From Ruminococcus sp. (lineage in GTDB: Bacteria > Bacillota > Clostridia > Oscillospirales > Ruminococcaceae): 64,000 nt of DNA. Shown piece by piece: positions 28,066 to 58,350 of the stretch (position 1 is its first letter; each line of letters starts with the position of its first letter). The notes under the pieces are model-generated. The model made no database searches, was not told where the DNA came from, and saw nothing but the letters and a program-made list of their open reading frames with translations. Position numbers and translations under genes: made by a program. Location: positions 2,230 to 66,229 of the forward strand of contig JAJBTZ010000011.1 in the NCBI GenBank assembly GCA_020860605.1, given 5' to 3'.

Positions 28066-28188
28066 CTGACCGCCTCCCAGAAAAACACTAAGCCCACCTA
28101 GCCACGTTCTATTATACTCCAAAAGAATGAAGGTTGCAAGTAGTAAATTGGGGGGCAGAGGAGGATTTTTGAGGGGAAAGTTTTTCAG

Positions 28189-41681: not shown

Positions 41682-42209
41682 TCAAATTCGCTTTAACTCC
41701 ATCCCTTCAATATCTTTATCGGAAATAATTAACTTGTTGTTGAGCTTCGGCCACTCAATTCCAACATCAGGATCATCGTATCTGAGCACACACGCTGCTT
41801 CTTTTTTGAACCCTCCATCTATACACCACTGCATCAAAACATCATCCTCAAGTGTTAAGTAGCCATGAGCAAATCCTTTAGGAACATACATAATTTTTCT
41901 GTTTTCAAAGGAAAGTACCTCTCCAACATATTGACCGAACGTATCTGAGCCCTTTCTTATATCCACACCCACAGAAAAAACAGAACCGTGAAGGCAGGAA
42001 ACCAGTTTTGCCTGTTCATATGGTGTCTTTTGAAAGTGAAGACCACGCATAGTATTGGCTTTATAACTGTATCCATGATTTATTTGACATACATCAAAAT
42101 TGATTCCAAGTTTTCTCGCAGAATCAATCTCCAGTGAAACTGAGGTATACCCTCTATCGTCTGAGTAAACATCCAGACCTTTAAAAACAATAACAGAATC
42201 TTGTCTCAA
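41682..42209 (-). CDS. RmlC-like cupin sugar-nucleotide epimerase (second copy)
   Basis: 175 aa. MRGLHFQ..QAKLVSCLHGSVFSVGVDIRKGS..GFAHGY resembles dTDP-4-dehydrorhamnose 3,5-epimerase but is distinct from rfbC at 57736-58350. Confidence 0.65.
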   Translation of the reverse strand: MRQDSVIVFKGLDVYSDDRGYTSVSLEIDSARKLGINFDVCQINHGYSYKANTMRGLHFQKTPYEQAKLVSCLHGSVFSVGVDIRKGSDTFGQYVGEVLSFENRKIMYVPKGFAHGYLTLEDDVLMQWCIDGGFKKEAACVLRYDDPDVGIEWPKLNNKLIISDKDIEGMELKRI

Positions 42210-42230: not shown

Positions 42231-42665
42231 TCATTCAAAGCTCTTACGAATGGTCTCCATTTCCGATGAATTGGGAAATACTTTGTTGACACCAACTACT
42301 GTATGGAAAGGTGGTACATCCTTAGTTACAATTGCGCCAGCACCAACAATCGCGCCTTCGCCGATTTCAACATGTCCAATAATTGTAGCTCTTGCCCCAA
42401 GAATTGCTCCTTTATGAACTACAGGTGCGTTTTCCAAGCCTTTTGAGGCTCCTAATGTGACACCATGCTGAATAATAACCTTAGATTCAACAACCGCATA
42501 CTTGCTAATCACGACGCCCAATGCAGAATGCTGGAATGAAACATCATCAGCAATATTAGCATCTATTGGAATATCACATCCATAGTAATGGCGCATAAAC
42601 CAACTAATCAAGCGTCTACCCCCCCACGCTTTTCTTCCTAATTGCAAGCATTTACTGACACTCAC
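42231..42665 (-). CDS. hexapeptide-repeat (CysE/WcaB-like) O-acetyltransferase carrying a 5' G7 tract
   Basis: 144 aa from GTG 42665. Left-handed beta-helix repeats (IIQHGVTLG, ILGARATIIGHVEIGEGAIVGAGAIV). Codons 14-16 lie within the G7 tract. Confidence 0.7.
   Translation of the reverse strand: MSVSKCLQLGRKAWGGRRLISWFMRHYYGCDIPIDANIADDVSFQHSALGVVISKYAVVESKVIIQHGVTLGASKGLENAPVVHKGAILGARATIIGHVEIGEGAIVGAGAIVTKDVPPFHTVVGVNKVFPNSSEMETIRKSFE
42619..42625 (-). repeat. G7 homopolymer tract (C7 on the plus strand) in acetyltransferase codons 14-16
   Basis: Read directly. G6 or G8 gives a stop within 1-3 codons after the tract. Confidence 0.95.
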
Positions 42666-43702
42666 TTCTGAATACCCCTCTCTGTAAAATGTGGCTCTCT
42701 ATTTTTTGTACTTTCTTTTCAATGAAAATATTAGACAAAACGGCAAACATAAATGTTAACACCATTGAAATCAGAATCAACAACCATTCTCTTCCTGAAA
42801 TTACCTGTATGAGAAAAGTTATTATCGGCATATGCCATACATATATTCCATACGATAATTCAACCTTAAGGCGACACTTTCCAAATCGAAACGCAAGACC
42901 TAATGTCAACATTCCTGCTAACAGTACAGTTATAGGATCTGTATAATATCCCGCTTCTGCAAGTGGTTCGACATGATACTTTATCAGCAAATGCCATGCC
43001 AAAAATGCAACTGTTATGTAAATGAGATTATTACAGATAAATCGTATTACACTGTCTTTGAACTTGTATCCTAGCACTCCAATCAAGAAAAAGTACAGAT
43101 ACGGCAAAAAACTACTGGAATATATTTTAGCCACAATGCCAAATCCATTATTTTGACAAAGTGAGACAAGCTCATTTCCAATCAGATTAATAAGAAAAGC
43201 ACACGCAAATGTAATCCCCCAAAAGGTCTTGCTGCAATTGCTAATAAGCACCTTTTTACAAAGCACCGCTATCACGTAAATCTGAAGTTCAATCCATATA
43301 GCCCATATTGCTCCGTTACTGATACCATATATCTCATTACCGTTTGGCTTTAATATCATTTTTACTGCAAAAATCAGTACATCCTCAGCACTAAGTTGTA
43401 CCCCCCTGAATCACACTCAGCACATATGCAGCTATAATCATGGCGATAATACTAACGATATACACAGGGTAGATTCGGAAAAATCTCTTTATAAGATAGA
43501 CTCCACCACTCGACCGTTCTAAAGAAGGTATAAGGAAGAAACCACATATTACAAAGAAAGCAACTAATGATGCACCAGCAAAGAGGAATCTATCATATGC
43601 TAGGTTTTCTAATCCAAAAACCGCAACAGAATAGTGAGAAAACATGATCAGTACTGAAGCAACTAATCTAATTACGTCAAAAGAATTTTCCTTATAGTTC
43701 AT
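42652..43702 (-). pseudogene. acyltransferase family 3 (OafA-like O-acyltransferase), split by a frameshift at a G6 tract
   Basis: The 103-aa N-terminal ORF (43391-43702) and the 235-aa C-terminal ORF (42652-43359) are consecutive membrane segments. Deleting one G from the tract at 43401-43406 joins them without a stop. Confidence 0.75.
43401..43406 (-). repeat. G6 homopolymer tract at the acyltransferase-3 frameshift
   Basis: Read directly. G5 or G8 restores the long ORF. Confidence 0.95.
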
Positions 43703-45815: not shown

Positions 45816-46982
45816 TTATAACGTATTCTTTCTTGCCCTACTCACAGTTCCTCTAAACGATTTCAGGAAAGAAATTGCTGATTCATTTTTGGCATAGCTC
45901 AACATATTCTTAGTATCATACTCGGGAGAGCTTTTTCCCATAAGTCTGAGTGCTAAAACCTTGCTAGCAATATTCGTTCTTTTCGAATAGTGATTGGGCT
46001 GAACAAACCTTATGGTATCTACCTTATCGTCAATCTTATTCAAATCAATCGCTTTATCTTTAAACGCTCTATTTAAAAGCTCTAAACCTGTTTCTGTCCA
46101 AGCAAATACAATATTTCTACCGTCTTTTTCCGTAAAATCAGGCTTGTTATTAGCGTCAAGATACCAATAATCACCACATGAAATATCAGCCCGCTCGCCA
46201 ATCCCATCAAAGCAAAACTTACATGACTTTCTTATATCTCTGCCCAAAATCTCAATCCAACTTTTCTCGTATTCCATTGTGTGTGCTTTGCCATCGTCAT
46301 CTATGGCTGTTGTAAGCCCAGGCCATCCATTTCCTCTATAACGAAGCTCCTTACATTTGTCGCATTTCAATTCATCAAGCAATTTCTTGTTTGCATCTTC
46401 GCTTGGGATTCCAGCACAGAAGAAAGAGATTAAATACGGAATCCTTTTCCTCAATTTCTCATCGGAATCCATATAGTTTCTGATTGCAGCTACGTCACAG
46501 GGCTTTCCGATAAAGCAGTATCTTTCTCCTTCTCTCAAAAAAGCGGAAAGATTATACAAAGGAGATGATTGGCAATAACGTGATCCAGAGCAAGAATATA
46601 TGTCTTCAACGCATCTTGAGCATACAACATCTGTTGAATATTGCTCATGTTCCGAGGCTTTTACTTGAATAACGCCGTCAACCAAGCTATGAGCCAAAAG
46701 GTATGCCGCTAAAGCAGAAACCACGCCACCACTAGATGCCTTAGTTCGTAGTTCTTCATCCGTGGACCACCCTTGGAATACTCCGTGATAATCTCCCCAT
46801 ACACTTCCATTATACTTTCTCACACCATTCTTCCCGATTGGACAAACGGAAACCATAGATGCTTTTTCTGCTTCTTTGCCCTCAAAGTCGGGATAATAGA
46901 AGCCTTTACTATCCTTGCAAAAGTCTATATCATAAATATCGTGACAAAGACCACAGCCGGAACAAAAATCATAAAAACTCAA
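45816..46982 (-). CDS. FrhB-like (coenzyme F420 hydrogenase beta-subunit family) Fe-S flavoprotein
   Basis: 388 aa. N-terminal CSGCGLCHD cluster and an FrhB-type C-terminal domain. Overlaps the pyruvyl transferase gene by 4 nt, the usual pairing. Confidence 0.7.
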   Translation of the reverse strand: MSFYDFCSGCGLCHDIYDIDFCKDSKGFYYPDFEGKEAEKASMVSVCPIGKNGVRKYNGSVWGDYHGVFQGWSTDEELRTKASSGGVVSALAAYLLAHSLVDGVIQVKASEHEQYSTDVVCSRCVEDIYSCSGSRYCQSSPLYNLSAFLREGERYCFIGKPCDVAAIRNYMDSDEKLRKRIPYLISFFCAGIPSEDANKKLLDELKCDKCKELRYRGNGWPGLTTAIDDDGKAHTMEYEKSWIEILGRDIRKSCKFCFDGIGERADISCGDYWYLDANNKPDFTEKDGRNIVFAWTETGLELLNRAFKDKAIDLNKIDDKVDTIRFVQPNHYSKRTNIASKVLALRLMGKSSPEYDTKNMLSYAKNESAISFLKSFRGTVSRARKNTL

Positions 46983-48139: not shown

Positions 48140-49281
48140 TCTAATTCCCCCGTTGAAGAAAGTGCATTCCTTATATTTTCTAAAACACTAAATTTGTTAT
48201 GTTCATCCGGCTCAACATAAGCTCCTTCGCCCCACTCGTTCCATGCCATAAGAAACAGATAGTCGGTGTGGTACTCATTTTTCGCTTTTACAATCAGCTG
48301 CTTTAGATATTTTCCAAACTTATTAGGAGTGAATCCGCATACAATTGTACTATTAAACCCTTTACGAGGAGAGGCATCATAATTCACAAATGCACATGGA
48401 ATGATATTTTCTTGTGCTTGCCTTTGCAAAATGAACTTCCAAATTCCGTCGTAGCTATACTTGTATAGATGTAAAGACTTAAACTTTCCTTTTGTAGCAA
48501 TGTTTAATATTTTCTTACAGTCCTGTCCTATCATATTGAATACAAATCTCGGATTTCTTATCAGATTTTCACGAATAGTATTCATACGATGCTTCATATA
48601 GCATGTCTTAGAATAATCCGGTTCATACTGAATGGATTTACTGATGCAATCTACATTAGCTTTATCCATTAAGTATGTTTGAGCCTGAGAAATGAATGAT
48701 ATTCCCTTAAGACCATTTTCAACTGCCCTACGATTTAAGTATGAGAACATTCTTTCAGCACATTCTATCTTTTCAGGCTGATAAATGACAAGTAACGGCT
48801 TCTCATTAAACTTAATGTATCTACTATCCGAAAAAAATGGTAGTAAATATTGAAAATGCTTCTCCCACTCTTCTTCGTCACCATACTTAACATCCATCAA
48901 TATATCTGTATCTCCGCCGGTCCAAGTACGTGCCCAATTATGATTTGCCCAGCTTAAGCAAAAAGGCAGGTCTAAATCTTTGTTGGCTAAGTACATATCA
49001 ACCGGCTTCTCCATGAGTTGACGTCCTTCTCCCATCCAATAGTGGTAAAAGCAGAAGCCGTATACACCATATTTTTTTGCAAGTGAAATTTGCCACTCAA
49101 AAGTCGACTTTTCCTCCAGAGAATAAAAATTATCGTTCAGCGGAATAGTTGGCTGCACATGCCCACGAAATAGGGGCTTTGACTTTTTTACATTGGTCCA
49201 TTCTGTAAATCCCTTCCCCCACCATTTATCATTTTCAGGAAATGCATAAAATTGCGGCAAATAAAAAGCTATGATTTTCAT
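48136..49281 (-). CDS. WbsX-family glycosyltransferase / GH99-like domain protein
   Basis: 381 aa. Hallmark N-terminus KIIAFYLPQFYAFPENDKWWGKGFTEWTNV. Confidence 0.75.
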   Translation of the reverse strand: MKIIAFYLPQFYAFPENDKWWGKGFTEWTNVKKSKPLFRGHVQPTIPLNDNFYSLEEKSTFEWQISLAKKYGVYGFCFYHYWMGEGRQLMEKPVDMYLANKDLDLPFCLSWANHNWARTWTGGDTDILMDVKYGDEEEWEKHFQYLLPFFSDSRYIKFNEKPLLVIYQPEKIECAERMFSYLNRRAVENGLKGISFISQAQTYLMDKANVDCISKSIQYEPDYSKTCYMKHRMNTIRENLIRNPRFVFNMIGQDCKKILNIATKGKFKSLHLYKYSYDGIWKFILQRQAQENIIPCAFVNYDASPRKGFNSTIVCGFTPNKFGKYLKQLIVKAKNEYHTDYLFLMAWNEWGEGAYVEPDEHNKFSVLENIRNALSSTGELE

Positions 49282-49298
49282 ATAGTACTCCTTATATA

Positions 49299-50596
49299 TT
49301 AGTTTTCCTCTTCAAGTAAAAAGCCATTTTTTCGAGCTGCAAATGTCAAGAACAGAATTATGTAAAAAATACGAGACTCAGTGTCTTGAGCTATGCTAAA
49401 TAAGGTCAAAAAATACGTCAAAAAACCGATTCCAATCATTTTAAACAAAGAAATATAACGGTCAGGGATTTTACTAAGCTTCATAGCAAAGCAGTCTTTC
49501 AGTGCACTTAAACAAAGCAATACCTTGGCTACTAATGAAAATATCCCATATCTGTACAACCAATTCAGTACCTCTACTTCTATACTTTCTTTAGTGGCAT
49601 AGTAACCATATGATACATTACCCATATAATACTCGTAATCCAATGTTGCGCCTGCACCATATCCAAACAATGGATGTTCTTTAACTTTTTCAAAAACCCA
49701 TGCATAAAGCAGAATACGATGTCCCTCAGCAGTCCCAACGCCAGTATCGGAGCCTGAAATATTATCTGCAAAGCTATCATCAAATACAGATAAAATCATA
49801 TACAATAGATTTCTCATAATGTTAGATGTTCCACTCGACAACAACGTCGACACAAATAAAACGACTACAAGTGCTGCTAATACCCCAAGCAGTCGTTTTG
49901 CAAAATCATGAAATCCAAGACTCATCCAAATAAGAATTTGGCAAATGATAAAGAATACTATACTACCTCGCGATATAGTACAAATTGTTCCAACAAACAG
50001 TAACATATATATGATATTGTATTTTAATTTTTCTCTTGAATCCTGAGCTTTGTTCTGTAAATACACGCATAGTGGTGAAATAAGCAAATTATAAGCACCA
50101 TACGAATTTGACTGATAAGTAAAAGATTTTGCACGCACTAGTCCCAGTCTAATTTGATCTGTTATTTCAGCTTGGCTAGTATTTAGTAGAAAAAAACATT
50201 ATATCCTGTGATTGTTTCAATAACTGCAAATATAAATAATAGACCCGCCACTGAGACAAGAACTTCAATGACTCTGTTGAATTTTTCCTCAGAATCAACC
50301 TCATTGATAATGAGAATTCCTAAAACAGGCACATATGCGATATAATAAATATTTGATACCCATTTCTCGTTGACAATTCCACTTACAAATGTAGATACCA
50401 CAAATAAAGCCATAAAGATATCTGTCCAATTTGAAGGTCTTTTCAGAGTAAGCTTTCCGTGTGTTGTAAACAAATAGAGAATAAAAAACAGGGCTACAAG
50501 AATGAAAACTCCAGAAATGTTCCCGACAACAAAATAAGTTGGCAAAATCGGATATAATGCTATGAATAAAATCATTATAGAAAATCTATCAACCAT
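49299..50596 (-). pseudogene. wzy: Wzy-type O-antigen/repeat-unit polymerase, split by a frameshift at a T7 run
   Basis: The 137-aa N-terminal ORF ends ..GYNVFFY*. The 279-aa C-terminal ORF carries the Wzy_C-like TISRGSIVFF region. Adding one T to the run at 50190-50196 reads through (..NVFFLLNTSQAEITDQIRLGLVRAKSFTYQ..). Confidence 0.7.
50190..50196 (-). repeat. T7 homopolymer run (A7 on the plus strand) at the wzy frameshift
   Basis: Read directly. T8 restores the reading frame. Confidence 0.95.
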
Positions 50597-50664
50597 TCTC
50601 TTTTTCCTCTTTTTAACCTCGTTCTAGTATTCTTTAAAATGTTCATGCTTTATTTCGATATATA

Positions 50665-52002
50665 TTAAATATCCAACGTGTTAACGACATATCCTTCAGT
50701 TGCTTTCTCCGAAGGAATTATCTTCCCCGGATTGCCAATAACAATACTATTATCAGGCACGTCAAAATTTACAAATGCTCCCGGAGCAATCAACACATTA
50801 TTGCCTACCTTTATATTACCAACTATTATTGCGTTTGAGCCGATCCAGACTCTGTCTCCTATCGTTGGATTTCCCTGACGCTTGCCTCTGCGCTCATAGC
50901 CGATAGTGACACCTTGAAGTATCTCGCAGTCTTTTCCAATAATAACACCGCCATTTATTGCTATACCTCCGACATGTCTGATTATAAAACCAGATCCAAT
51001 TTGTGTTGTCGTTCCAAGATCTACTCCATACTTGGTAGCATAATGACCATAAATTGCTCTCCAAAAGCAAAACAACACCTTATTCTTGTCCTTGTACTTT
51101 TTACATTTGCGAAACAAGTAAACTACTCTGTATTTTGAAATGCCCATCCAGTGAACCCAAGTCCTAAAATCAGTTTTTCCTGTCCAGCGATATAAGCCAT
51201 ACAAATAGGGCCTTCTACGGAGTCTTTCTAAATCTTGTACCCCCCCACGCTTCCAAATATTTATCAGTTTCAAGCGTGCTGTCTTATACTTTTCTCTTGT
51301 CCTCATTACCCATCTAGGAACTCCGTTGCGTACCCCTATCTCAACGCCTTCCTGAAAAACCTTTTTTGCATTCTCGTCACTAGCTCCTCCGGCAGACATA
51401 ATAGTAGTGACTTCTGGGAACCTTTGGAATTTAACCCCATTACTATAGAATCGTGCCATTAAATCTTTGTCCATTGCATAACGAAACTCAACGTCAAATG
51501 TTCCATACTTCTGATAAGCTGTCTTCTTTACAAAACAAGCCGGATGCATAAGAACCATGTCGTACTTTAGCTTCTTGAGCTTCATAGATGATTTTCTGAC
51601 ATATTGCATATTATTAACTTCATCGACCCACAATATATCTCCGCATATTACTTCACAGTCACTATCAAATGAATCTACTATTTTTTTAAGAATTTGTTTA
51701 TCAGAAAGCCTATCATCCGAATTTATAATCCCAATAATATCTCCAGTTGACCTCTCAATGCCCTTGTTAAAAGCATCACTTATGCCTTTATCAGGTTCGG
51801 ATTTGAAGTTTGTCTCAATACCAGCCTCATGGAATTTAGGAATATACGATTCTATCAACTGTATTGTTCCATCGGTTGATCCGCCATCAACAAGAACATA
51901 CTCCAATGGGCGATATGTCTGTTCTAAGACAGAACACATCGTAGCTTCAATGCTCTTCTGCGAGTTATATGAAATTGTGATTATCGAAACTTTCTCGCCC
52001 AT
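50665..52002 (-). CDS. GT2 glycosyltransferase fused to a CysE/WcaB-like acetyltransferase through a G7 tract
   Basis: 445 aa. N-terminal GT2 (VSIITISYNS, VDGGSTDGT, DSDD-like SDDRL). C-terminal hexapeptide domain (IGDRVWIGSNAIIVGNIKVGNNVLIAPGAFV). The hinge ..WKRGGVQD.. is encoded by the tract. Confidence 0.7.
   Translation of the reverse strand: MGEKVSIITISYNSQKSIEATMCSVLEQTYRPLEYVLVDGGSTDGTIQLIESYIPKFHEAGIETNFKSEPDKGISDAFNKGIERSTGDIIGIINSDDRLSDKQILKKIVDSFDSDCEVICGDILWVDEVNNMQYVRKSSMKLKKLKYDMVLMHPACFVKKTAYQKYGTFDVEFRYAMDKDLMARFYSNGVKFQRFPEVTTIMSAGGASDENAKKVFQEGVEIGVRNGVPRWVMRTREKYKTARLKLINIWKRGGVQDLERLRRRPYLYGLYRWTGKTDFRTWVHWMGISKYRVVYLFRKCKKYKDKNKVLFCFWRAIYGHYATKYGVDLGTTTQIGSGFIIRHVGGIAINGGVIIGKDCEILQGVTIGYERRGKRQGNPTIGDRVWIGSNAIIVGNIKVGNNVLIAPGAFVNFDVPDNSIVIGNPGKIIPSEKATEGYVVNTLDI
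51240..51246 (-). repeat. G7 homopolymer tract at the GT2-acetyltransferase hinge
   Basis: Read directly. G6 stops 3 codons after the tract (..RGGYKI*) and G8 stops 8 codons after it. Confidence 0.95.
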
Positions 52003-53396: not shown

Positions 53397-54242
53397 TTAC
53401 ACAGCAACCTTTGCACAAATGAGCGAGTACCCCCCCACACTGCTGCTTTCTATCAATTCATCTTTTGTAAAAAGATGATTGAGTTGCTGCGACAATATGC
53501 AAATCATATTGTTGCGGTCAGTCTCATCGAGCTGAGAGACGTCTAAGATAATACCTCGTGGATTTATCATTCTGGTTAGATAAAACTTAGCTTTTGAAAT
53601 TTTACTCTCCTGCGTTTTCTTGTTGACTAATCTGATCGTACGTCTTACTACAGGACATTCCTGTTCAATATTTTTCCATTCTTCCGCAACTACATCTTCG
53701 TATATTGCATTCGCAAACTCTGTTGTAAGAAATGAGTTCATCAATTCTTTTACTTTGCATTGATCGGATAAATACACTTTGCGTATAAAATCTCTGTACT
53801 TCTCTTTTATGTAGCCATGATATAAATATCTTGAGAAAAGCATCGTCACTGCTTGAACAGAATCACTTGCTACATAGATTCCATCAACTTTCCGTCTATC
53901 TTCTAAAAGCATTTCTGCAGGCAGTAAGTTAATGCCATTCCAACCATATGATTGGAAATCAAAATGTGCAAGATAATCTCCATCATCCGCTGACATCACA
54001 ACTGTCCACACATTTCCAAAATCCCGCCATACGGAATACGCAATCTTCCATCCATTGCTACGTATAATTCTCAATATCTGGTCGCTGTATTTCAAATCAA
54101 TCGCTATATCGACATCATGCAAATCTCCGCTTATGATTTCATCTGCATTACGAAGTACACAGTATCTAATACCAGCTTTTTCAAATTCACTAAAGCAATC
54201 TATGATATATGCTATATCTTTTCTCATTGCCTGCTCCTCCAT
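53397..54242 (-). CDS. uncharacterised NTase-like domain protein, truncated paralog of the next gene
   Basis: 281 aa. Collinear with residues ~10-260 of the 445-aa protein (CVLRNADE..HDVDI, YLYHGYIKEKYRDFI). The position of the paralog's P-loop reads VSQLDETDRNN. A G7 tract lies 13 codons before the stop. Confidence 0.5.
   Translation of the reverse strand: MEEQAMRKDIAYIIDCFSEFEKAGIRYCVLRNADEIISGDLHDVDIAIDLKYSDQILRIIRSNGWKIAYSVWRDFGNVWTVVMSADDGDYLAHFDFQSYGWNGINLLPAEMLLEDRRKVDGIYVASDSVQAVTMLFSRYLYHGYIKEKYRDFIRKVYLSDQCKVKELMNSFLTTEFANAIYEDVVAEEWKNIEQECPVVRRTIRLVNKKTQESKISKAKFYLTRMINPRGIILDVSQLDETDRNNMICILSQQLNHLFTKDELIESSSVGGYSLICAKVAV
53430..53436 (-). repeat. G7 homopolymer tract near the 3' end of the NTase-like paralog
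   Basis: Read directly. Length changes replace only the last ~13 residues with alternative tails. Confidence 0.95.
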
Positions 54243-55593: not shown

Positions 55594-56511
55594 TTATGCA
55601 AGCTGTGTTATCAGCCTTCTAAACTCGCTTAAAAAAGCTTCTTTGTCTATCTCAAACTCAGGGATATACTTTCTAATTTCTTTAATGCCACTTTCATAAG
55701 CATCTTCAAAAGAAAGATTATTCAGAGCAACGCCTATAACCGTTACATAATGCATGATGTCATAGCCTGCCATTCTGTAGCCACATTGCTCCCAGTCAAA
55801 TACCGTATAGCGGTTTTCAGTCTTTTTAATATTCCAAGGCGCAAAATCACCGTGTGAAAACTCACATCCCGACAAATGCTCCCCAAATTTTATAGCCGAT
55901 ATTTCTTTGTAAATCTCAACAATATCTTCTGTGAGAACCGGCTCGACTTTTTCACCTTTAAACTCCCTTGTCAATTGTAAATTGAACGGATTGCCATTAT
56001 CTGCTTTTATAGCTGTGATGAGTTCGGGAATCTCAAATGTCCTGTATGCCCCACGCTTGCTCAGGAAATCCATCTCAGCAGACATTTCTTTCTCTGTGGC
56101 GGAGTTTCCTATTTTTACGAAGACTGCATCATCTGTATCATTTCCAAAGCACTGCATTACGAGCTTTTGCTTTTCGTCATATGTTCCGACAATCATGTTC
56201 CATGAACTTTTGCCAGTCTGCTCGAATGCCTTTTCTATCTCTGGATGAAGCTGCACCTTTGCAAAGTAGCCCATTCCAGCTTTTTCGAGCAGCCAAAACG
56301 GAATGCAGTTCAGATATTTCATCAGCAGTCCCAGCTTGCCGGAATATGTAGAGATATTCTGACTCAGCCGTTTCTTTCCGCTGGGAGCAATTATGTATCT
56401 AATCTTATCTCCATTGCAAAGAACAAAGTGCGATGAGTCTTTCTTTTCAGTTTTTTCTATCTTTAGTGCCTGTTTCAGTATGCCAGACGTACTTTTCATA
56501 TCACTCATCAA
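55594..56511 (-). CDS. protein-kinase-like fold phosphotransferase (APH/choline-kinase family)
   Basis: 305 aa. Brenner-type catalytic motif FSHGDFAPWNI followed by VFDWEQCG. Confidence 0.65.
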   Translation of the reverse strand: MMSDMKSTSGILKQALKIEKTEKKDSSHFVLCNGDKIRYIIAPSGKKRLSQNISTYSGKLGLLMKYLNCIPFWLLEKAGMGYFAKVQLHPEIEKAFEQTGKSSWNMIVGTYDEKQKLVMQCFGNDTDDAVFVKIGNSATEKEMSAEMDFLSKRGAYRTFEIPELITAIKADNGNPFNLQLTREFKGEKVEPVLTEDIVEIYKEISAIKFGEHLSGCEFSHGDFAPWNIKKTENRYTVFDWEQCGYRMAGYDIMHYVTVIGVALNNLSFEDAYESGIKEIRKYIPEFEIDKEAFLSEFRRLITQLA

Positions 56512-57735: not shown

Positions 57736-58350
57736 CTAAAACCTAAACGTATCTTTCAACCCCACCCACAACTGATCTTTCTCACTCAGCCTAAGTGGCG
57801 TACCATCCTCAAGCGCATATCCCTCAGCAGATGCTGTCCCATTGTAAGCACCTGTTACTCCAACCCCTGCCCAATCAATCCCAATCTTCGGATCATTCCA
57901 GGCAAGTCCTCCCTCGTCATTCGGGTGATAGAAGTCATCGCACTTATAGCAGAACTCTGCCGTATCACTCAATACGAGAAAACCGTGTGCGAAGCCTCTG
58001 GGAATCAGAAACTGCTTCTTGTTCTCCTCAGTCAGCTCAATGCCATACCATTTACCGTAAGTGTCTGAACCACTTCTCAGATCCACGGCTACATCGAAAA
58101 CAGAACCTTTAATCACTCTGACAAGCTTCGTCTGGGGATAATCCTTCTGGAAATGAAGTCCACGAAGGACGCCCTTTGTTGACATCGACTGGTTGTCTTG
58201 AACGAAAGTAATGTCAATTCCCGCTTCTTCCATATCTCTCTGACTGTAGGTCTCCATAAAGTAGCCACGGCTGTCACCATGAACGGCTGGCTCTATTACG
58301 CACAAGCCCTTGATGCCTGCGACGTCCTTTTCAACTTTTATCTGTCCCAT
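57736..58350 (-). CDS. rfbC: dTDP-4-dehydrorhamnose 3,5-epimerase
   Basis: 204 aa. HGDSRGYFMETY, RGLHFQ, GFAHGF motifs. rfbABDC context. Confidence 0.9.
   Translation of the reverse strand: MGQIKVEKDVAGIKGLCVIEPAVHGDSRGYFMETYSQRDMEEAGIDITFVQDNQSMSTKGVLRGLHFQKDYPQTKLVRVIKGSVFDVAVDLRSGSDTYGKWYGIELTEENKKQFLIPRGFAHGFLVLSDTAEFCYKCDDFYHPNDEGGLAWNDPKIGIDWAGVGVTGAYNGTASAEGYALEDGTPLRLSEKDQLWVGLKDTFRF

What the first reader, a model, noticed from the sequence alone, without database searches (positions are those of the whole stretch)
50665..52002. A G7 tract forms the hinge of a GT2-acetyltransferase fusion; G6 or G8 uncouples the two domains
At G7 the frame reads ..AAG CGT GGG GGG GTA CAA GAT.. (WKRGGVQD). 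This joins a complete GT2 domain of about 250 aa to a complete CysE/WcaB-like acetyltransferase module. The N-terminal LYGLYRWTGKTDF segment of that module looks like the normal start region of stand-alone enzymes of this type.

- **G6:** the GT2 part ends at ..RGGYKI*.
- **G8:** it ends at ..RGGGTRFRKTP*. In this state the GTG inside AAGCGTG comes into frame with the acetyltransferase (V GGVQDLERL..).

Tract length could therefore toggle between fusion, GT2 only, and possibly GT2 plus a separately initiated acetyltransferase.
Basis: seen in the sequence. Interest (0 to 1): 0.65.

Follow-up and report, generated by a model that had tools for sequence, protein, structure and literature searches.

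The report
Variable poly-G hinge in sugar-modifying enzyme
In the surface-polysaccharide gene cluster of an uncultured gut Oscillospiraceae bacterium, a run of seven Gs joins a glycosyltransferase to an acetyltransferase, and near-identical strains from other samples carry six or five Gs, which splits the two enzymes; this fits a slippage-driven switch of sugar acetylation, a known kind of mechanism in an unusual position and host.

Summary
Window 50665..52002 (-) is a 445-aa ORF: a GT2 glycosyltransferase, a G7 tract (C7 at 51240-51246 on +), then a CysE/WcaB/EpsC-like hexapeptide acetyltransferase (AT). G6 gives ..RGGYKI* and G8/G5 give ..RGG(G)TRFRKTP*.

- **Natural alleles exist.** Among 12 loci that are 99.8-99.9% identical, three are G7, eight are G6 and one is G5. 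Each SNP lineage holds more than one length, so the tract changed at least four times. A 92%-identical strain is G6; two others at about 96-97% are G7.
- **The module boundary is real.** Stand-alone GT2 and AT homologues end and begin at the tract. Other fusions have a 15-20 aa longer linker with no homopolymer.
- **The AT has stayed functional.** Its dN/dS is 0.08 between a G7 and a G6 strain.
- **The tract is not alone.** It is one of four poly-G tracts in this Wzx/Wzy locus, all with a GT-Gn-TA(C/G)-like context.

Caveats:
- No raw reads were available, so switching within a population is unproven.
- The locus shows recent loss-of-function mutations and a pN/pS of 0.73.
- AT expression in the G6 and G5 states is unknown.

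Verdict: a real hypermutable tract and a probable phase-variable acetylation switch, a new variant of a known kind.

The parts
50665..52002 (-). 445-aa GT2-acetyltransferase fusion ORF (the G7 state)
   Evidence: The same 445-aa protein is in the public collection (P0121). Full-length fused relatives P0002-P0010 are 53-62% identical.
51253..52002 (-). GT2 glycosyltransferase module (aa 1-250)
   Evidence: Pfam PF00535 scores 86 bits. It is 66-70% identical to stand-alone GT2 proteins of 262-263 aa. dN/dS is 0.05 against L007.
51240..51246 (-). G7 tract at the hinge (C7 on the + strand); G5, G6 and G7 alleles seen in nature
50665..51239 (-). CysE/WcaB/EpsC-like hexapeptide acetyltransferase module (aa 254-445 plus stop)
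   Evidence: Pfam Hexapep. NCBIfam EpsC, cysE and WcaB all score below their cut-offs. It is 60-75% identical to stand-alone ATs over their full length. dN/dS is 0.08 against L007.
51228..51230 (-). TAG stop used by the GT2 frame in the G6 state (257-aa product)
   Evidence: Proteins P0125, P0126, P0128 and P0134 end ..RGGYKI.
51215..51217 (-). TAG stop used by the GT2 frame in the G5/G8 state; it overlaps the AGAAGG below
   Evidence: P0131 ends ..RGGTRFRKTP.
51202..51216 (-). AGAAGG (51211-51216) followed 6 nt later by an in-frame TTG (51202-51204): candidate internal start of a 179-aa AT in the split states
   Evidence: Gene callers start the AT here in the G6 and G5 loci (P0122 and P0129). 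Whether it is used is untested.
53430..53436 (-). Second variable G7 tract, at the 3' end of the 281-aa ORF 53397..54242 of unknown function (G6 gives 286 aa)
   Evidence: It is G7 in the window, L004, L007 and L099, and G6 in the other nine near-identical loci. The orthologous ORF in L095/L096 carries G11/G10 at the same end.
42619..42625 (-). Third variable G7 tract, at the 5' end of the small hexapeptide AT gene 42231..42665
   Evidence: It is G7 in the window only, and G6 in L001, L002, L009, L011, L013, L007/8 and X1. G7 uses a GTG with a GAGGGG SD. G6 brings an ATG abutting the upstream stop into frame.
43401..43406 (-). Fourth tract (G6), which splits an Acyl_transf_3 gene into 103 + 235 aa; G5 or G8 would restore one ORF
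   Evidence: It is G6 in every locus fetched that covers this tract, and G7 in one X2 contig.

Best explanation
The gene encodes a bifunctional enzyme of a Wzx/Wzy-type polysaccharide pathway. The N-terminal GT2 adds a sugar. The C-terminal left-handed beta-helix acetyltransferase O-acetylates the product.

The 7-G run at the joint is a slippage-prone simple-sequence repeat. At G7 one 445-aa fusion is made. A loss of one or two Gs during replication ends the GT2 frame 4-8 codons later. The GT2 is then about as long as its stand-alone relatives and presumably still active. The AT is left untranslated, or only weakly re-initiated from an internal TTG.

Tract length would therefore switch acetylation of the polysaccharide while sparing glycosylation. 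It is one of at least four such poly-G switches in the same locus, so together they could generate combinatorial surface variants.

- **Shown:** the tract, the frames, the natural G5, G6 and G7 alleles, recurrent change on near-identical backgrounds, and long-term purifying selection on the AT.
- **Inferred:** the slippage mechanism, reversibility within populations, the activity of each product, and the adaptive value.
For: Anatomy:
- Frames and domains are as described.

Natural alleles:
- The 90%-identity cluster of this protein holds 445-aa, 257-aa (..RGGYKI), 261-aa (..RGGTRFRKTP) and 254-aa forms. It also holds separately called 179- and 160-aa ATs.
- The DNA is G7 in the window, L001, L013 and L099. 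It is G6 in L002-5 and L009-12, and G5 in L006.

Recurrent change:
- L013 (G7) differs from L002 (G6) by 2 SNPs in 7.3 kb. L006 (G5) differs from L012 (G6) by 1 SNP.
- The four-gamete test fails with SNPs 46, 311 and 383 bp from the tract.
- All indels among these 12 loci are in homopolymers. 3 of 3 G7 tracts vary, against 1 of 5 A/T7, 1 of 23 A/T6 and 1 of 70 A/T5.

Not an assembly artefact:
- Independent assemblies of the same samples agree. The window and L099 are 100% identical, and L009 matches L010.

Retention over time:
- The tract is kept in diverged strains in both states. L007/L008 (92% id) are G6. P0132 (97% protein identity) and X1 (96%) are G7.
- dN/dS is 0.08 for the AT and 0.05 for the GT2 between the window (G7) and L007 (G6), at dS about 0.3.

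Architecture and relatives:
- The fusion architecture is functional elsewhere (P0002-P0010).
- Related loci of another organism carry G7, G9 and G10/G11 tracts in polysaccharide genes, one of which varies in length.
Against: - No read-level data were available. Only Logan contigs could be laid, so heterogeneity within one population is unshown.
- G7 is short compared with classical contingency tracts, which are G9-G10 in Campylobacter (PMC8355987).
- The count of G7 runs in the window is not above a dinucleotide shuffle.
- The lineage shows relaxed or loss-favouring evolution of the whole locus. Within-lineage pN/pS is 0.73. There are three nonsense SNPs, and frameshifts in wzy, wbsX and the FrhB-like gene. 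wzy is frameshifted in all 12 loci. Tract variation could therefore be neutral noise at the most mutable sites.
- In the G6 and G5 states an SD-like AGAAGG plus TTG, and stop codons 10-23 nt upstream of it, could still allow AT synthesis. The switch may therefore not be ON/OFF.
Confidence: 0.68

Rival explanations
1. Neutral decay. The polysaccharide locus is no longer needed, or is selected against, in this lineage. The G tract is simply the most mutable site in a gene that is becoming a pseudogene. The length differences are fixed strain differences, not a switch.
For: - wzy is frameshifted at a T7 run in all 12 near-identical loci but intact in L007/L008.
- There are nonsense SNPs in rmlD (two) and in GT4-402. 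There are homopolymer frameshifts in wzy, wbsX and the FrhB-like gene. Within-lineage pN/pS is 0.73.
- G6, the split state, is the commonest allele.
Against: - Long-term dN/dS is 0.04-0.19 across the locus and 0.08 for the AT, although L007 is G6.
- Both states occur in each SNP lineage and in strains 3-8% diverged. This requires either repeated restoration or repeated loss.
- Four tracts share one sequence context. A related organism has G9-G11 tracts at the same kind of genes.
- Raised pN/pS at very short divergence is common and does not by itself prove loss of function.
Confidence: 0.17
2. Fusion/fission toggle without loss of activity. In G6 and G5 the AT is still made as a separate protein, by re-initiation at the TTG behind AGAAGG or at the upstream TTG/GTG. 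The tract would then change coupling, stoichiometry or localisation of the AT rather than turning acetylation off.
For: - Stand-alone GT2 plus AT gene pairs are the common arrangement (L017).
- AGAAGG lies 6 nt before an in-frame TTG. The G5/G8-frame stop overlaps that AGAAGG, and the G6 stop lies 23 nt upstream.
- The 12 codons between the tract and the TTG still resemble the N-terminus of stand-alone ATs (LERLRRRPY vs IEKCRKKPY). In every tract state an in-frame start codon lies upstream of them.
Against: - The upstream TTG and GTG candidates have no SD.
- A product started at the downstream TTG lacks about 12 conserved N-terminal residues.
- There are no expression data.
Confidence: 0.12
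3. Sequencing or assembly artefact. The length differences arise from homopolymer miscalls in metagenome assemblies.
For: All evidence comes from assembled contigs. Homopolymers are error-prone on some platforms, and the library type of the runs is not known here.
Against: - Two assemblers give identical tracts for the same samples (window vs L099, L009 vs L010).
- Only 7 of about 106 homopolymers of 5 nt or more vary, and all three G7 tracts do.
- A/T-tract indels are shared by loci of the same SNP lineage from different samples (L001 and L009).
- Contigs of 10-20 kb at 99.85% identity imply accurate reads.
Confidence: 0.03

Closest known systems
Poly-G contingency loci of Campylobacter jejuni capsule, LOS and flagellar-glycosylation genes (review PMC8355987)
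   Same: - Intragenic G tracts sit in several polysaccharide-modifying genes of one locus.
- Frameshifting by +/-1 G switches between full-length and truncated proteins.
- Multiple tracts give combinatorial phasotypes.
   Different: - The tracts here are G6-G7, not G9-G10.
- The host is an uncultured Gram-positive gut Oscillospiraceae, and its mismatch-repair status was not examined.
- The tract sits at a domain hinge, so only the C-terminal enzyme is lost.
- The tracts share a GT-Gn-TA(C/G) context. I am not aware that this has been reported for Campylobacter (my own knowledge).
Phase-variable polysaccharide O-acetyltransferases: NeuO of E. coli K1 (PMC3046976), and from my own knowledge meningococcal OatC/OatWY and pneumococcal wciZ/wcjE/wciG (wciG frameshifts: PMC11934437)
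   Same: A repeat or homopolymer frameshift in a hexapeptide or other O-acetyltransferase turns capsule O-acetylation on and off without abolishing the capsule.
   Different: - Those are stand-alone AT genes, usually with 5' repeats (heptanucleotide in neuO).
- Here the AT is the C-terminal half of a GT2 fusion, and the repeat replaces the intergenic junction.
G-tract replication-slippage switch of Bifidobacterium breve sortase-dependent pili (PMC9187656)
   Same: A gut Gram-positive commensal in which an intragenic G tract decides whether a surface structure is made. Tract-length plasticity has been measured in vivo.
   Different: - The target there is pilus genes, not polysaccharide genes.
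- It was demonstrated by error-corrected deep sequencing, which is missing here.
Fused GT2-acetyltransferase proteins P0002-P0010 and separate GT2/AT gene pairs (for example L017) in Lachnospiraceae and Oscillospiraceae metagenomes
   Same: The same two modules occur in the same order in Wzy-containing polysaccharide loci. Full-length identity is 53-62% for the fusions and 60-75% for each separate module.
   Different: - The other fusions have a 15-20 aa longer linker, which keeps the GT2 tail and in some members (e.g. P0003) an AT Met. They have no homopolymer at the joint.
- The window gene is mosaic. Its GT2 is nearest to stand-alone GT2s, and its AT is 92% identical to the AT of P0011, which is joined to a different GT2 clade.

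Membership tests
Simple-sequence-repeat (homopolymer) phase-variable / contingency locus | Intragenic mononucleotide tract whose +/-1 change shifts the frame of a surface-related gene | tested here: met
   A G7 tract at gene nt 757-763. G5, G6 and G8 truncate the ORF after 257-262 aa. The gene lies in a Wzx/Wzy polysaccharide locus.
Simple-sequence-repeat (homopolymer) phase-variable / contingency locus | Tract length polymorphic among otherwise near-identical genomes, with recurrent (homoplasic) change | tested here: met
   G5, G6 and G7 occur among 12 loci of 99.8-99.9% identity. At least 4 independent changes are needed. The four-gamete test fails with a SNP 46 bp away.
Simple-sequence-repeat (homopolymer) phase-variable / contingency locus | High-frequency, reversible switching within a clonal population | not testable with these tools
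   Only assembled contigs of a few runs could be laid.
Simple-sequence-repeat (homopolymer) phase-variable / contingency locus | Tract over-represented relative to genome background | tested here: inconclusive
   Three G7 runs against 2.6 expected from dinucleotide shuffles. However, G/C runs of 5 and 6 are 3-4 fold depleted, and all runs of 7 sit in this locus on the coding strand.
Simple-sequence-repeat (homopolymer) phase-variable / contingency locus | Tract retained over evolutionary time while the switched coding sequence stays under purifying selection | tested here: met
   The tract is present in strains of 92-97% identity, in both states. AT dN/dS is 0.08 at dS 0.35.
Glycosyltransferase family 2 (Pfam PF00535) | Score above the Pfam gathering cut-off; conserved acidic motifs | tested here: met
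   86.3 bits against a cutoff of 23.3. D39, D44 and D96-D97 are invariant in the alignment of 11 fusions. No NCBIfam equivalog is reached; WcaE scores 74 against 369.
Left-handed beta-helix (hexapeptide) acyltransferases, CysE/WcaB/EpsC-like branch | Hexapeptide repeats above the Pfam cut-off; best relatives in the serine-acetyltransferase-like branch | tested here: met
   Hexapep scores 40.1 bits against a cutoff of 27. The best PDB sequence matches are serine acetyltransferases at E 1e-17.
Serine O-acetyltransferase CysE proper / EpsC / WcaB equivalogs | NCBIfam equivalog score above the curated cut-off | tested here: not met
   EpsC scores 92.9 against 150, cysE 82.3 against 210.65, and WcaB 64.4 against 194.65. 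It is a polysaccharide-locus AT of that branch, not one of the named enzymes.
Fused GT2-AT proteins (P0002-P0010) | Colinear full-length similarity with the same domain order | tested here: met
   53-62% identity over 99-100% of the query.
Fused GT2-AT proteins (P0002-P0010) | Same linker, implying common descent of the fusion event | tested here: not met
   The window linker is 15-20 aa shorter. Its GT2 part is nearer to stand-alone GT2s (66-70%) than to fused ones (51-57%; 64% for P0002).

The most novel reading that the evidence does not exclude
The tract may be part of an organised multi-switch system rather than a chance homopolymer.

- **Shared context.** All six distinct G6-7 tracts of this locus type share the DNA context (G/T)T-Gn-TA(C/G). 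They do so in three different reading frames, while G5 runs nearby lack it. This points to a context-dependent mechanism that creates or destabilises the tracts.
- **Three states at the hinge.** The hinge tract could be a three-state device. G7 would give the fused enzyme and G6 the GT2 alone. G5/G8 would give the GT2 plus a separately re-initiated AT, because that frame's stop codon overlaps the AT's Shine-Dalgarno sequence.
Probability: 0.12. Interest if true: 0.8.

Novelty: new variant of a known kind. Interest (0 to 1): 0.55.

Why it matters
Phase variation in gut commensals has mostly been studied as promoter inversions in Bacteroides. Slippage switches in the abundant but uncultured Clostridia have, as far as my searches show, barely been described.

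This locus suggests that an Oscillospiraceae species varies the decoration of its surface polysaccharide through several short poly-G tracts. The affected functions are three acetyl/acyl-transferases and a protein tail. One tract is placed so that it removes only the acetyltransferase half of a bifunctional enzyme. Such variation would affect recognition by phages, IgA and lectins.

There are also practical consequences:
- G6-G7 tracts are shorter than the thresholds usually used to predict phase-variable genes.
- MAG annotation reports these genes as split or as pseudogenes depending on the sample.

Tried and rejected
- **Read-level census.** The look-up of sequencing runs returned only four runs of another study, all kept as contigs. 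Read laying therefore gave allele presence only.
- **More alleles from JGI metagenomes.** Two exact-pattern scans found nothing.
- **Source study.** A literature search for the accession numbers found nothing.
- **Structure.** The AlphaFold2 model from an 11-sequence alignment was poor (mean pLDDT 59). The hinge, aa 250-277, scored below 50. I did not use the model as evidence and ran no fold search.
- **G8-specific start at the GTG.** The sequence fact is right, but there is no SD and no G8 allele was observed. I rejected it as the likely route.
- **Count of G7 runs as evidence.** It is not significant against dinucleotide shuffles, so I rejected it as stand-alone evidence.
- **Assembly error.** The idea that the tract differences are assembly errors was rejected.
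Full report
**1. The observation**

The ORF at window 50665..52002 (minus strand) is 445 aa. On the plus strand a C7 run lies at 51240-51246. On the coding strand it reads AAG CGT GGG GGG GTA CAA GAT, that is K R G G V Q D.

G6 yields 257 aa ending RGGYKI*. G8 yields 262 aa ending RGGGTRFRKTP*. G5, in the same frame as G8, yields 261 aa ending RGGTRFRKTP*.
- Pfam places Glycos_transf_2 at aa 6-137, with GT2-like models reaching about aa 200. It places hexapeptide repeats at aa 378-411.
- NCBIfam's best AT models are EpsC, cysE and WcaB. Its best GT2 models are WcaE and EpsE. All score below their equivalog cut-offs.
- The nearest solved structures by sequence are a 279-aa glycosyltransferase and serine acetyltransferases.

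**2. Are the two halves complete modules?**

Yes.

- A search with the whole protein found hundreds of stand-alone GT2 proteins of 255-270 aa. They are 66-70% identical over the GT2 part and end about ten residues after the tract position.
- A search with the C-terminal 194 aa found stand-alone acetyltransferases of 188-194 aa, 60-75% identical over 94-98% of the query.
- Their N-termini, M-x3-EK-x-R-KKPYLYDLYRWTGK, align with the window's GVQDLERLRRRPYLYGLYRWTGK. The tract therefore sits where the stop of the GT2 gene and the start of the AT gene would be.
- In a Lachnospiraceae MAG (L017) a 266-aa GT2 and a 192-aa AT are separate genes 7 nt apart.
- Several stand-alone GT2 and AT hits come from contigs of the same length, which suggests pairs.

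**3. Is the fusion itself known?**

Ten other clusters, P0002-P0010, are full-length fusions of 451-466 aa at 53-62% identity.

- Their linkers are 15-20 aa longer. They keep the GT2 tail and, in some members (e.g. P0003), an AT methionine (..KGMNDKKILIEKCKRKPYLYDLYRW).
- Their DNA has no homopolymer at the joint (L094-L097).
- The window gene is mosaic. Its GT2 part is closer to stand-alone GT2s (66-70%) than to fused ones (51-57%; 64% for P0002).
- Its AT part is 92% identical to P0011, where it is joined to a different GT2 clade.

The window's short, G-rich joint therefore looks like an independent or recombinant fusion.

**4. Does the tract vary?**

The 90%-identity cluster of the window protein holds the following:
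- four 445-aa forms;
- five 257-aa forms, four ending RGGYKI and one ending RGGHKI;
- one 261-aa form ending RGGTRFRKTP;
- one 254-aa form;
- separately called 179- and 160-aa acetyltransferases.

I fetched the DNA.

- Twelve loci are 99.8-99.9% identical over up to 21 kb. They comprise the window plus eleven loci from nine runs of one study. Of those eleven loci, ten are Logan contigs and one (L009) is an NCBI MAG contig assembled from the same run as Logan contig L010.
- Their tract lengths are G7 in the window, L001 and L013; G6 in L002-5 and L009-12; and G5 in L006.
- L099 is the Logan assembly of the window's own sample. It is 100% identical to the window over 11.6 kb, including both G7 tracts. 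L009 (NCBI) and L010 (Logan) also agree. The lengths are therefore not assembler artefacts.

The SNP background shows recurrent change.
- L013 (G7) differs from L002 (G6) by 2 SNPs in 7.3 kb.
- L006 (G5) differs from L012 (G6) by 1 SNP.
- L001 (G7) groups with L009/10 (G6).
- The window (G7) shares its alleles at 56049, 51626 and 51197 with L011 (G6).
- The four-gamete test fails with SNPs 46, 311 and 383 bp from the tract.

At least four independent length changes are needed.

Every indel among these loci lies in a homopolymer. All three G7 tracts vary, against 1 of 5 A/T7, 1 of 23 A/T6 and 1 of 70 A/T5 runs.

More distant strains keep the tract in both states. L007/L008 are 92% identical, include the GTDB representative MAG named 'Oscillospiraceae bacterium', and are G6. 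P0132 (97% protein identity) and the X1 contig (96%) are G7.

**5. Selection**

- Between the window (G7) and L007 (G6), dN/dS is 0.05 for the GT2 part and 0.08 for the AT part at dS about 0.3. Other genes of the locus range from 0.04 to 0.19. The AT has therefore been kept functional over a period in which the tract sits in different states. This fits reversible switching, or expression in both states.
- Within the near-identical lineage the picture is different. pN/pS is 0.73. There are three nonsense SNPs, two in rmlD and one in GT4-402. There are homopolymer frameshifts in wzy, wbsX and the FrhB-like gene. wzy is frameshifted at a T7 run in all twelve loci although intact in L007/L008.

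This recent relaxed or loss-favouring evolution is the main caveat. The tract is certainly hypermutable, but its variation in this lineage might be unselected.

**6. Consequences of each state**

- **G7** gives the fusion.
- **G6** ends the GT2 frame at TAG 51228-51230.
- **G5/G8** end it at TAG 51215-51217.
- In all split states the first start codon with an SD-like sequence in the AT frame is the TTG at 51202-51204, six nt behind AGAAGG. Gene callers use it, giving 179 aa.
- The G5/G8 stop overlaps that AGAAGG. Termination-reinitiation is therefore conceivable.
- Upstream in-frame TTG (G6) or GTG (G5/G8) codons exist but lack an SD.

Whether the AT is off, low or separately made is not known.

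**7. Context**

The gene lies in a Wzx/Wzy polysaccharide locus, roughly window 40.4-62 kb on the minus strand. Its genes are:
- wecG, rmlABDC and two GT4 genes;
- a kinase-like gene pair and the GT2-AT fusion;
- wzy, wbsX, a pyruvyl transferase and an FrhB-like gene;
- two further hexapeptide ATs, wzx, Acyl_transf_3 and a second rmlC.

The locus carries three more poly-G tracts.
- **53430-36:** G7/G6, at the 3' end of an unknown 281/286-aa ORF.
- **42619-25:** G7/G6, at the 5' end of a small AT, where alternative GTG or ATG starts come into frame.
- **43401-06:** G6, which splits Acyl_transf_3. It is G7 in one X2 contig.

L007 adds two more tracts, one in a split GT4 and one in a DUF4422 GT region.

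All six distinct tracts are followed by TA (four TAC, two TAG), and five are preceded by GT. This holds in three different reading frames, and nearby G5 runs lack the context. I have no explanation for it.

A related organism's locus (L095-97) has G11/G10, G9 and G7 tracts in the orthologous unknown ORF, in a DUF4422 gene and in a split GT2. Its GT2-AT fusion has no tract.

**8. Comparison with the known**

- The behaviour matches SSR phase variation of polysaccharide-modifying enzymes. Known cases are the Campylobacter poly-G contingency genes (PMC8355987), phase-variable capsule O-acetyltransferases such as NeuO (PMC3046976), and a G-tract switch in the gut commensal Bifidobacterium breve (PMC9187656).
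- It differs in three ways: the short tract length, the uncultured Oscillospiraceae host, and the placement at the hinge of a bifunctional enzyme. At that position only the C-terminal activity is uncoupled.
- My literature searches found no description of such switches in Oscillospiraceae. This is absence in the library searched, not proof.

**9. Verdict**

- The most likely explanation is a slippage-driven switch of polysaccharide acetylation (confidence about 0.68).
- The rivals are neutral decay (0.17), a fusion/fission toggle with the AT still made (0.12), and artefact (0.03).
- It is a new variant of a known kind, of moderate interest.

Noticed in passing
window 53430-53436, 51240-51246, 43401-43406, 42619-42625; L007 2502, 6647, 8139, 10757, 18600, 19381: Every G6-7 tract in this locus type has the same flanks: (G/T)T-Gn-TA(C/G). 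The sequences are GCGT-G7-TACAAG, GCGT-G7-TAGACG, GTGT-G7-TACTCG, TTCA-G6-TACAAC, GTGT-G6-TACTCG and TTGT-G6-TACAAC. They occur in three different reading frames. G5 runs in the same loci lack the context. I have no explanation for this.
   Followed up: partly
window 53397-54242 (-) and L095 1778 / L096 1779: The 281-aa ORF of unknown function carries a variable G7/G6 tract 10 codons before its stop, which changes only the C-terminal tail (281 vs 286 aa). Its homologue in another organism has G11 vs G10 at the same end (282 vs 297 aa). The position of the tract is therefore conserved across species.
   Followed up: partly
window 42231-42665 (-): In the small hexapeptide acetyltransferase, G7 puts a GTG with a GAGGGG Shine-Dalgarno sequence in frame (144 aa). 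G6 puts in frame an ATG that directly abuts the stop of the upstream gene (139 aa). Both lengths give a complete protein with a different N-terminus.
   Followed up: partly
window 49299-50596 (-), T7 at 50190-50196: wzy is split into 137 + 279 aa by a 1-nt deficit at a T7 run in all 12 near-identical loci. The 92%-identical strain (L007/L008) has one 432-aa Wzy. T8 would restore the frame, but no T8 allele was seen.
   Followed up: partly
window 58866, 58526 (rmlD), 52833 (GT4-402), 48831-48837 (wbsX), 49692-49696 and 49420-49425 (wzy), 46445-46448 (FrhB-like): Different samples of the same strain carry independent loss-of-function changes. There are three nonsense SNPs and four A/T-homopolymer indels. 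Within-lineage pN/pS is 0.73, against long-term dN/dS of 0.04-0.19. The locus is under recent relaxed or loss-favouring selection.
   Followed up: yes
window about 50590-50660 (between the fusion gene and wzy): Four independent Logan contigs (L003, L005, L006, L010) end within 70 nt of each other just downstream of the fusion gene. This suggests co-existing strain variants or a repeat that breaks assemblies there.
   Followed up: no
L098 (P0011, SRR15221309): An acetyltransferase module 92% identical to the window's is joined to a GT2 of a different clade through a long linker. It comes from the same study, which points to module shuffling at the hinge.
   Followed up: partly
window 41682-42209 (-) and 57736-58350 (-): There are two dTDP-4-dehydrorhamnose 3,5-epimerase-like genes in one locus. 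The first passes the NCBIfam rmlC cut-off, at 159 bits against 155.75.
   Followed up: no
window 28150-28155 (+): This is the only other G/C run of 6 or more in the window. It has a different context (TT-G6-CA) and lies outside the polysaccharide locus. It would serve as a control tract for a read census.
   Followed up: no
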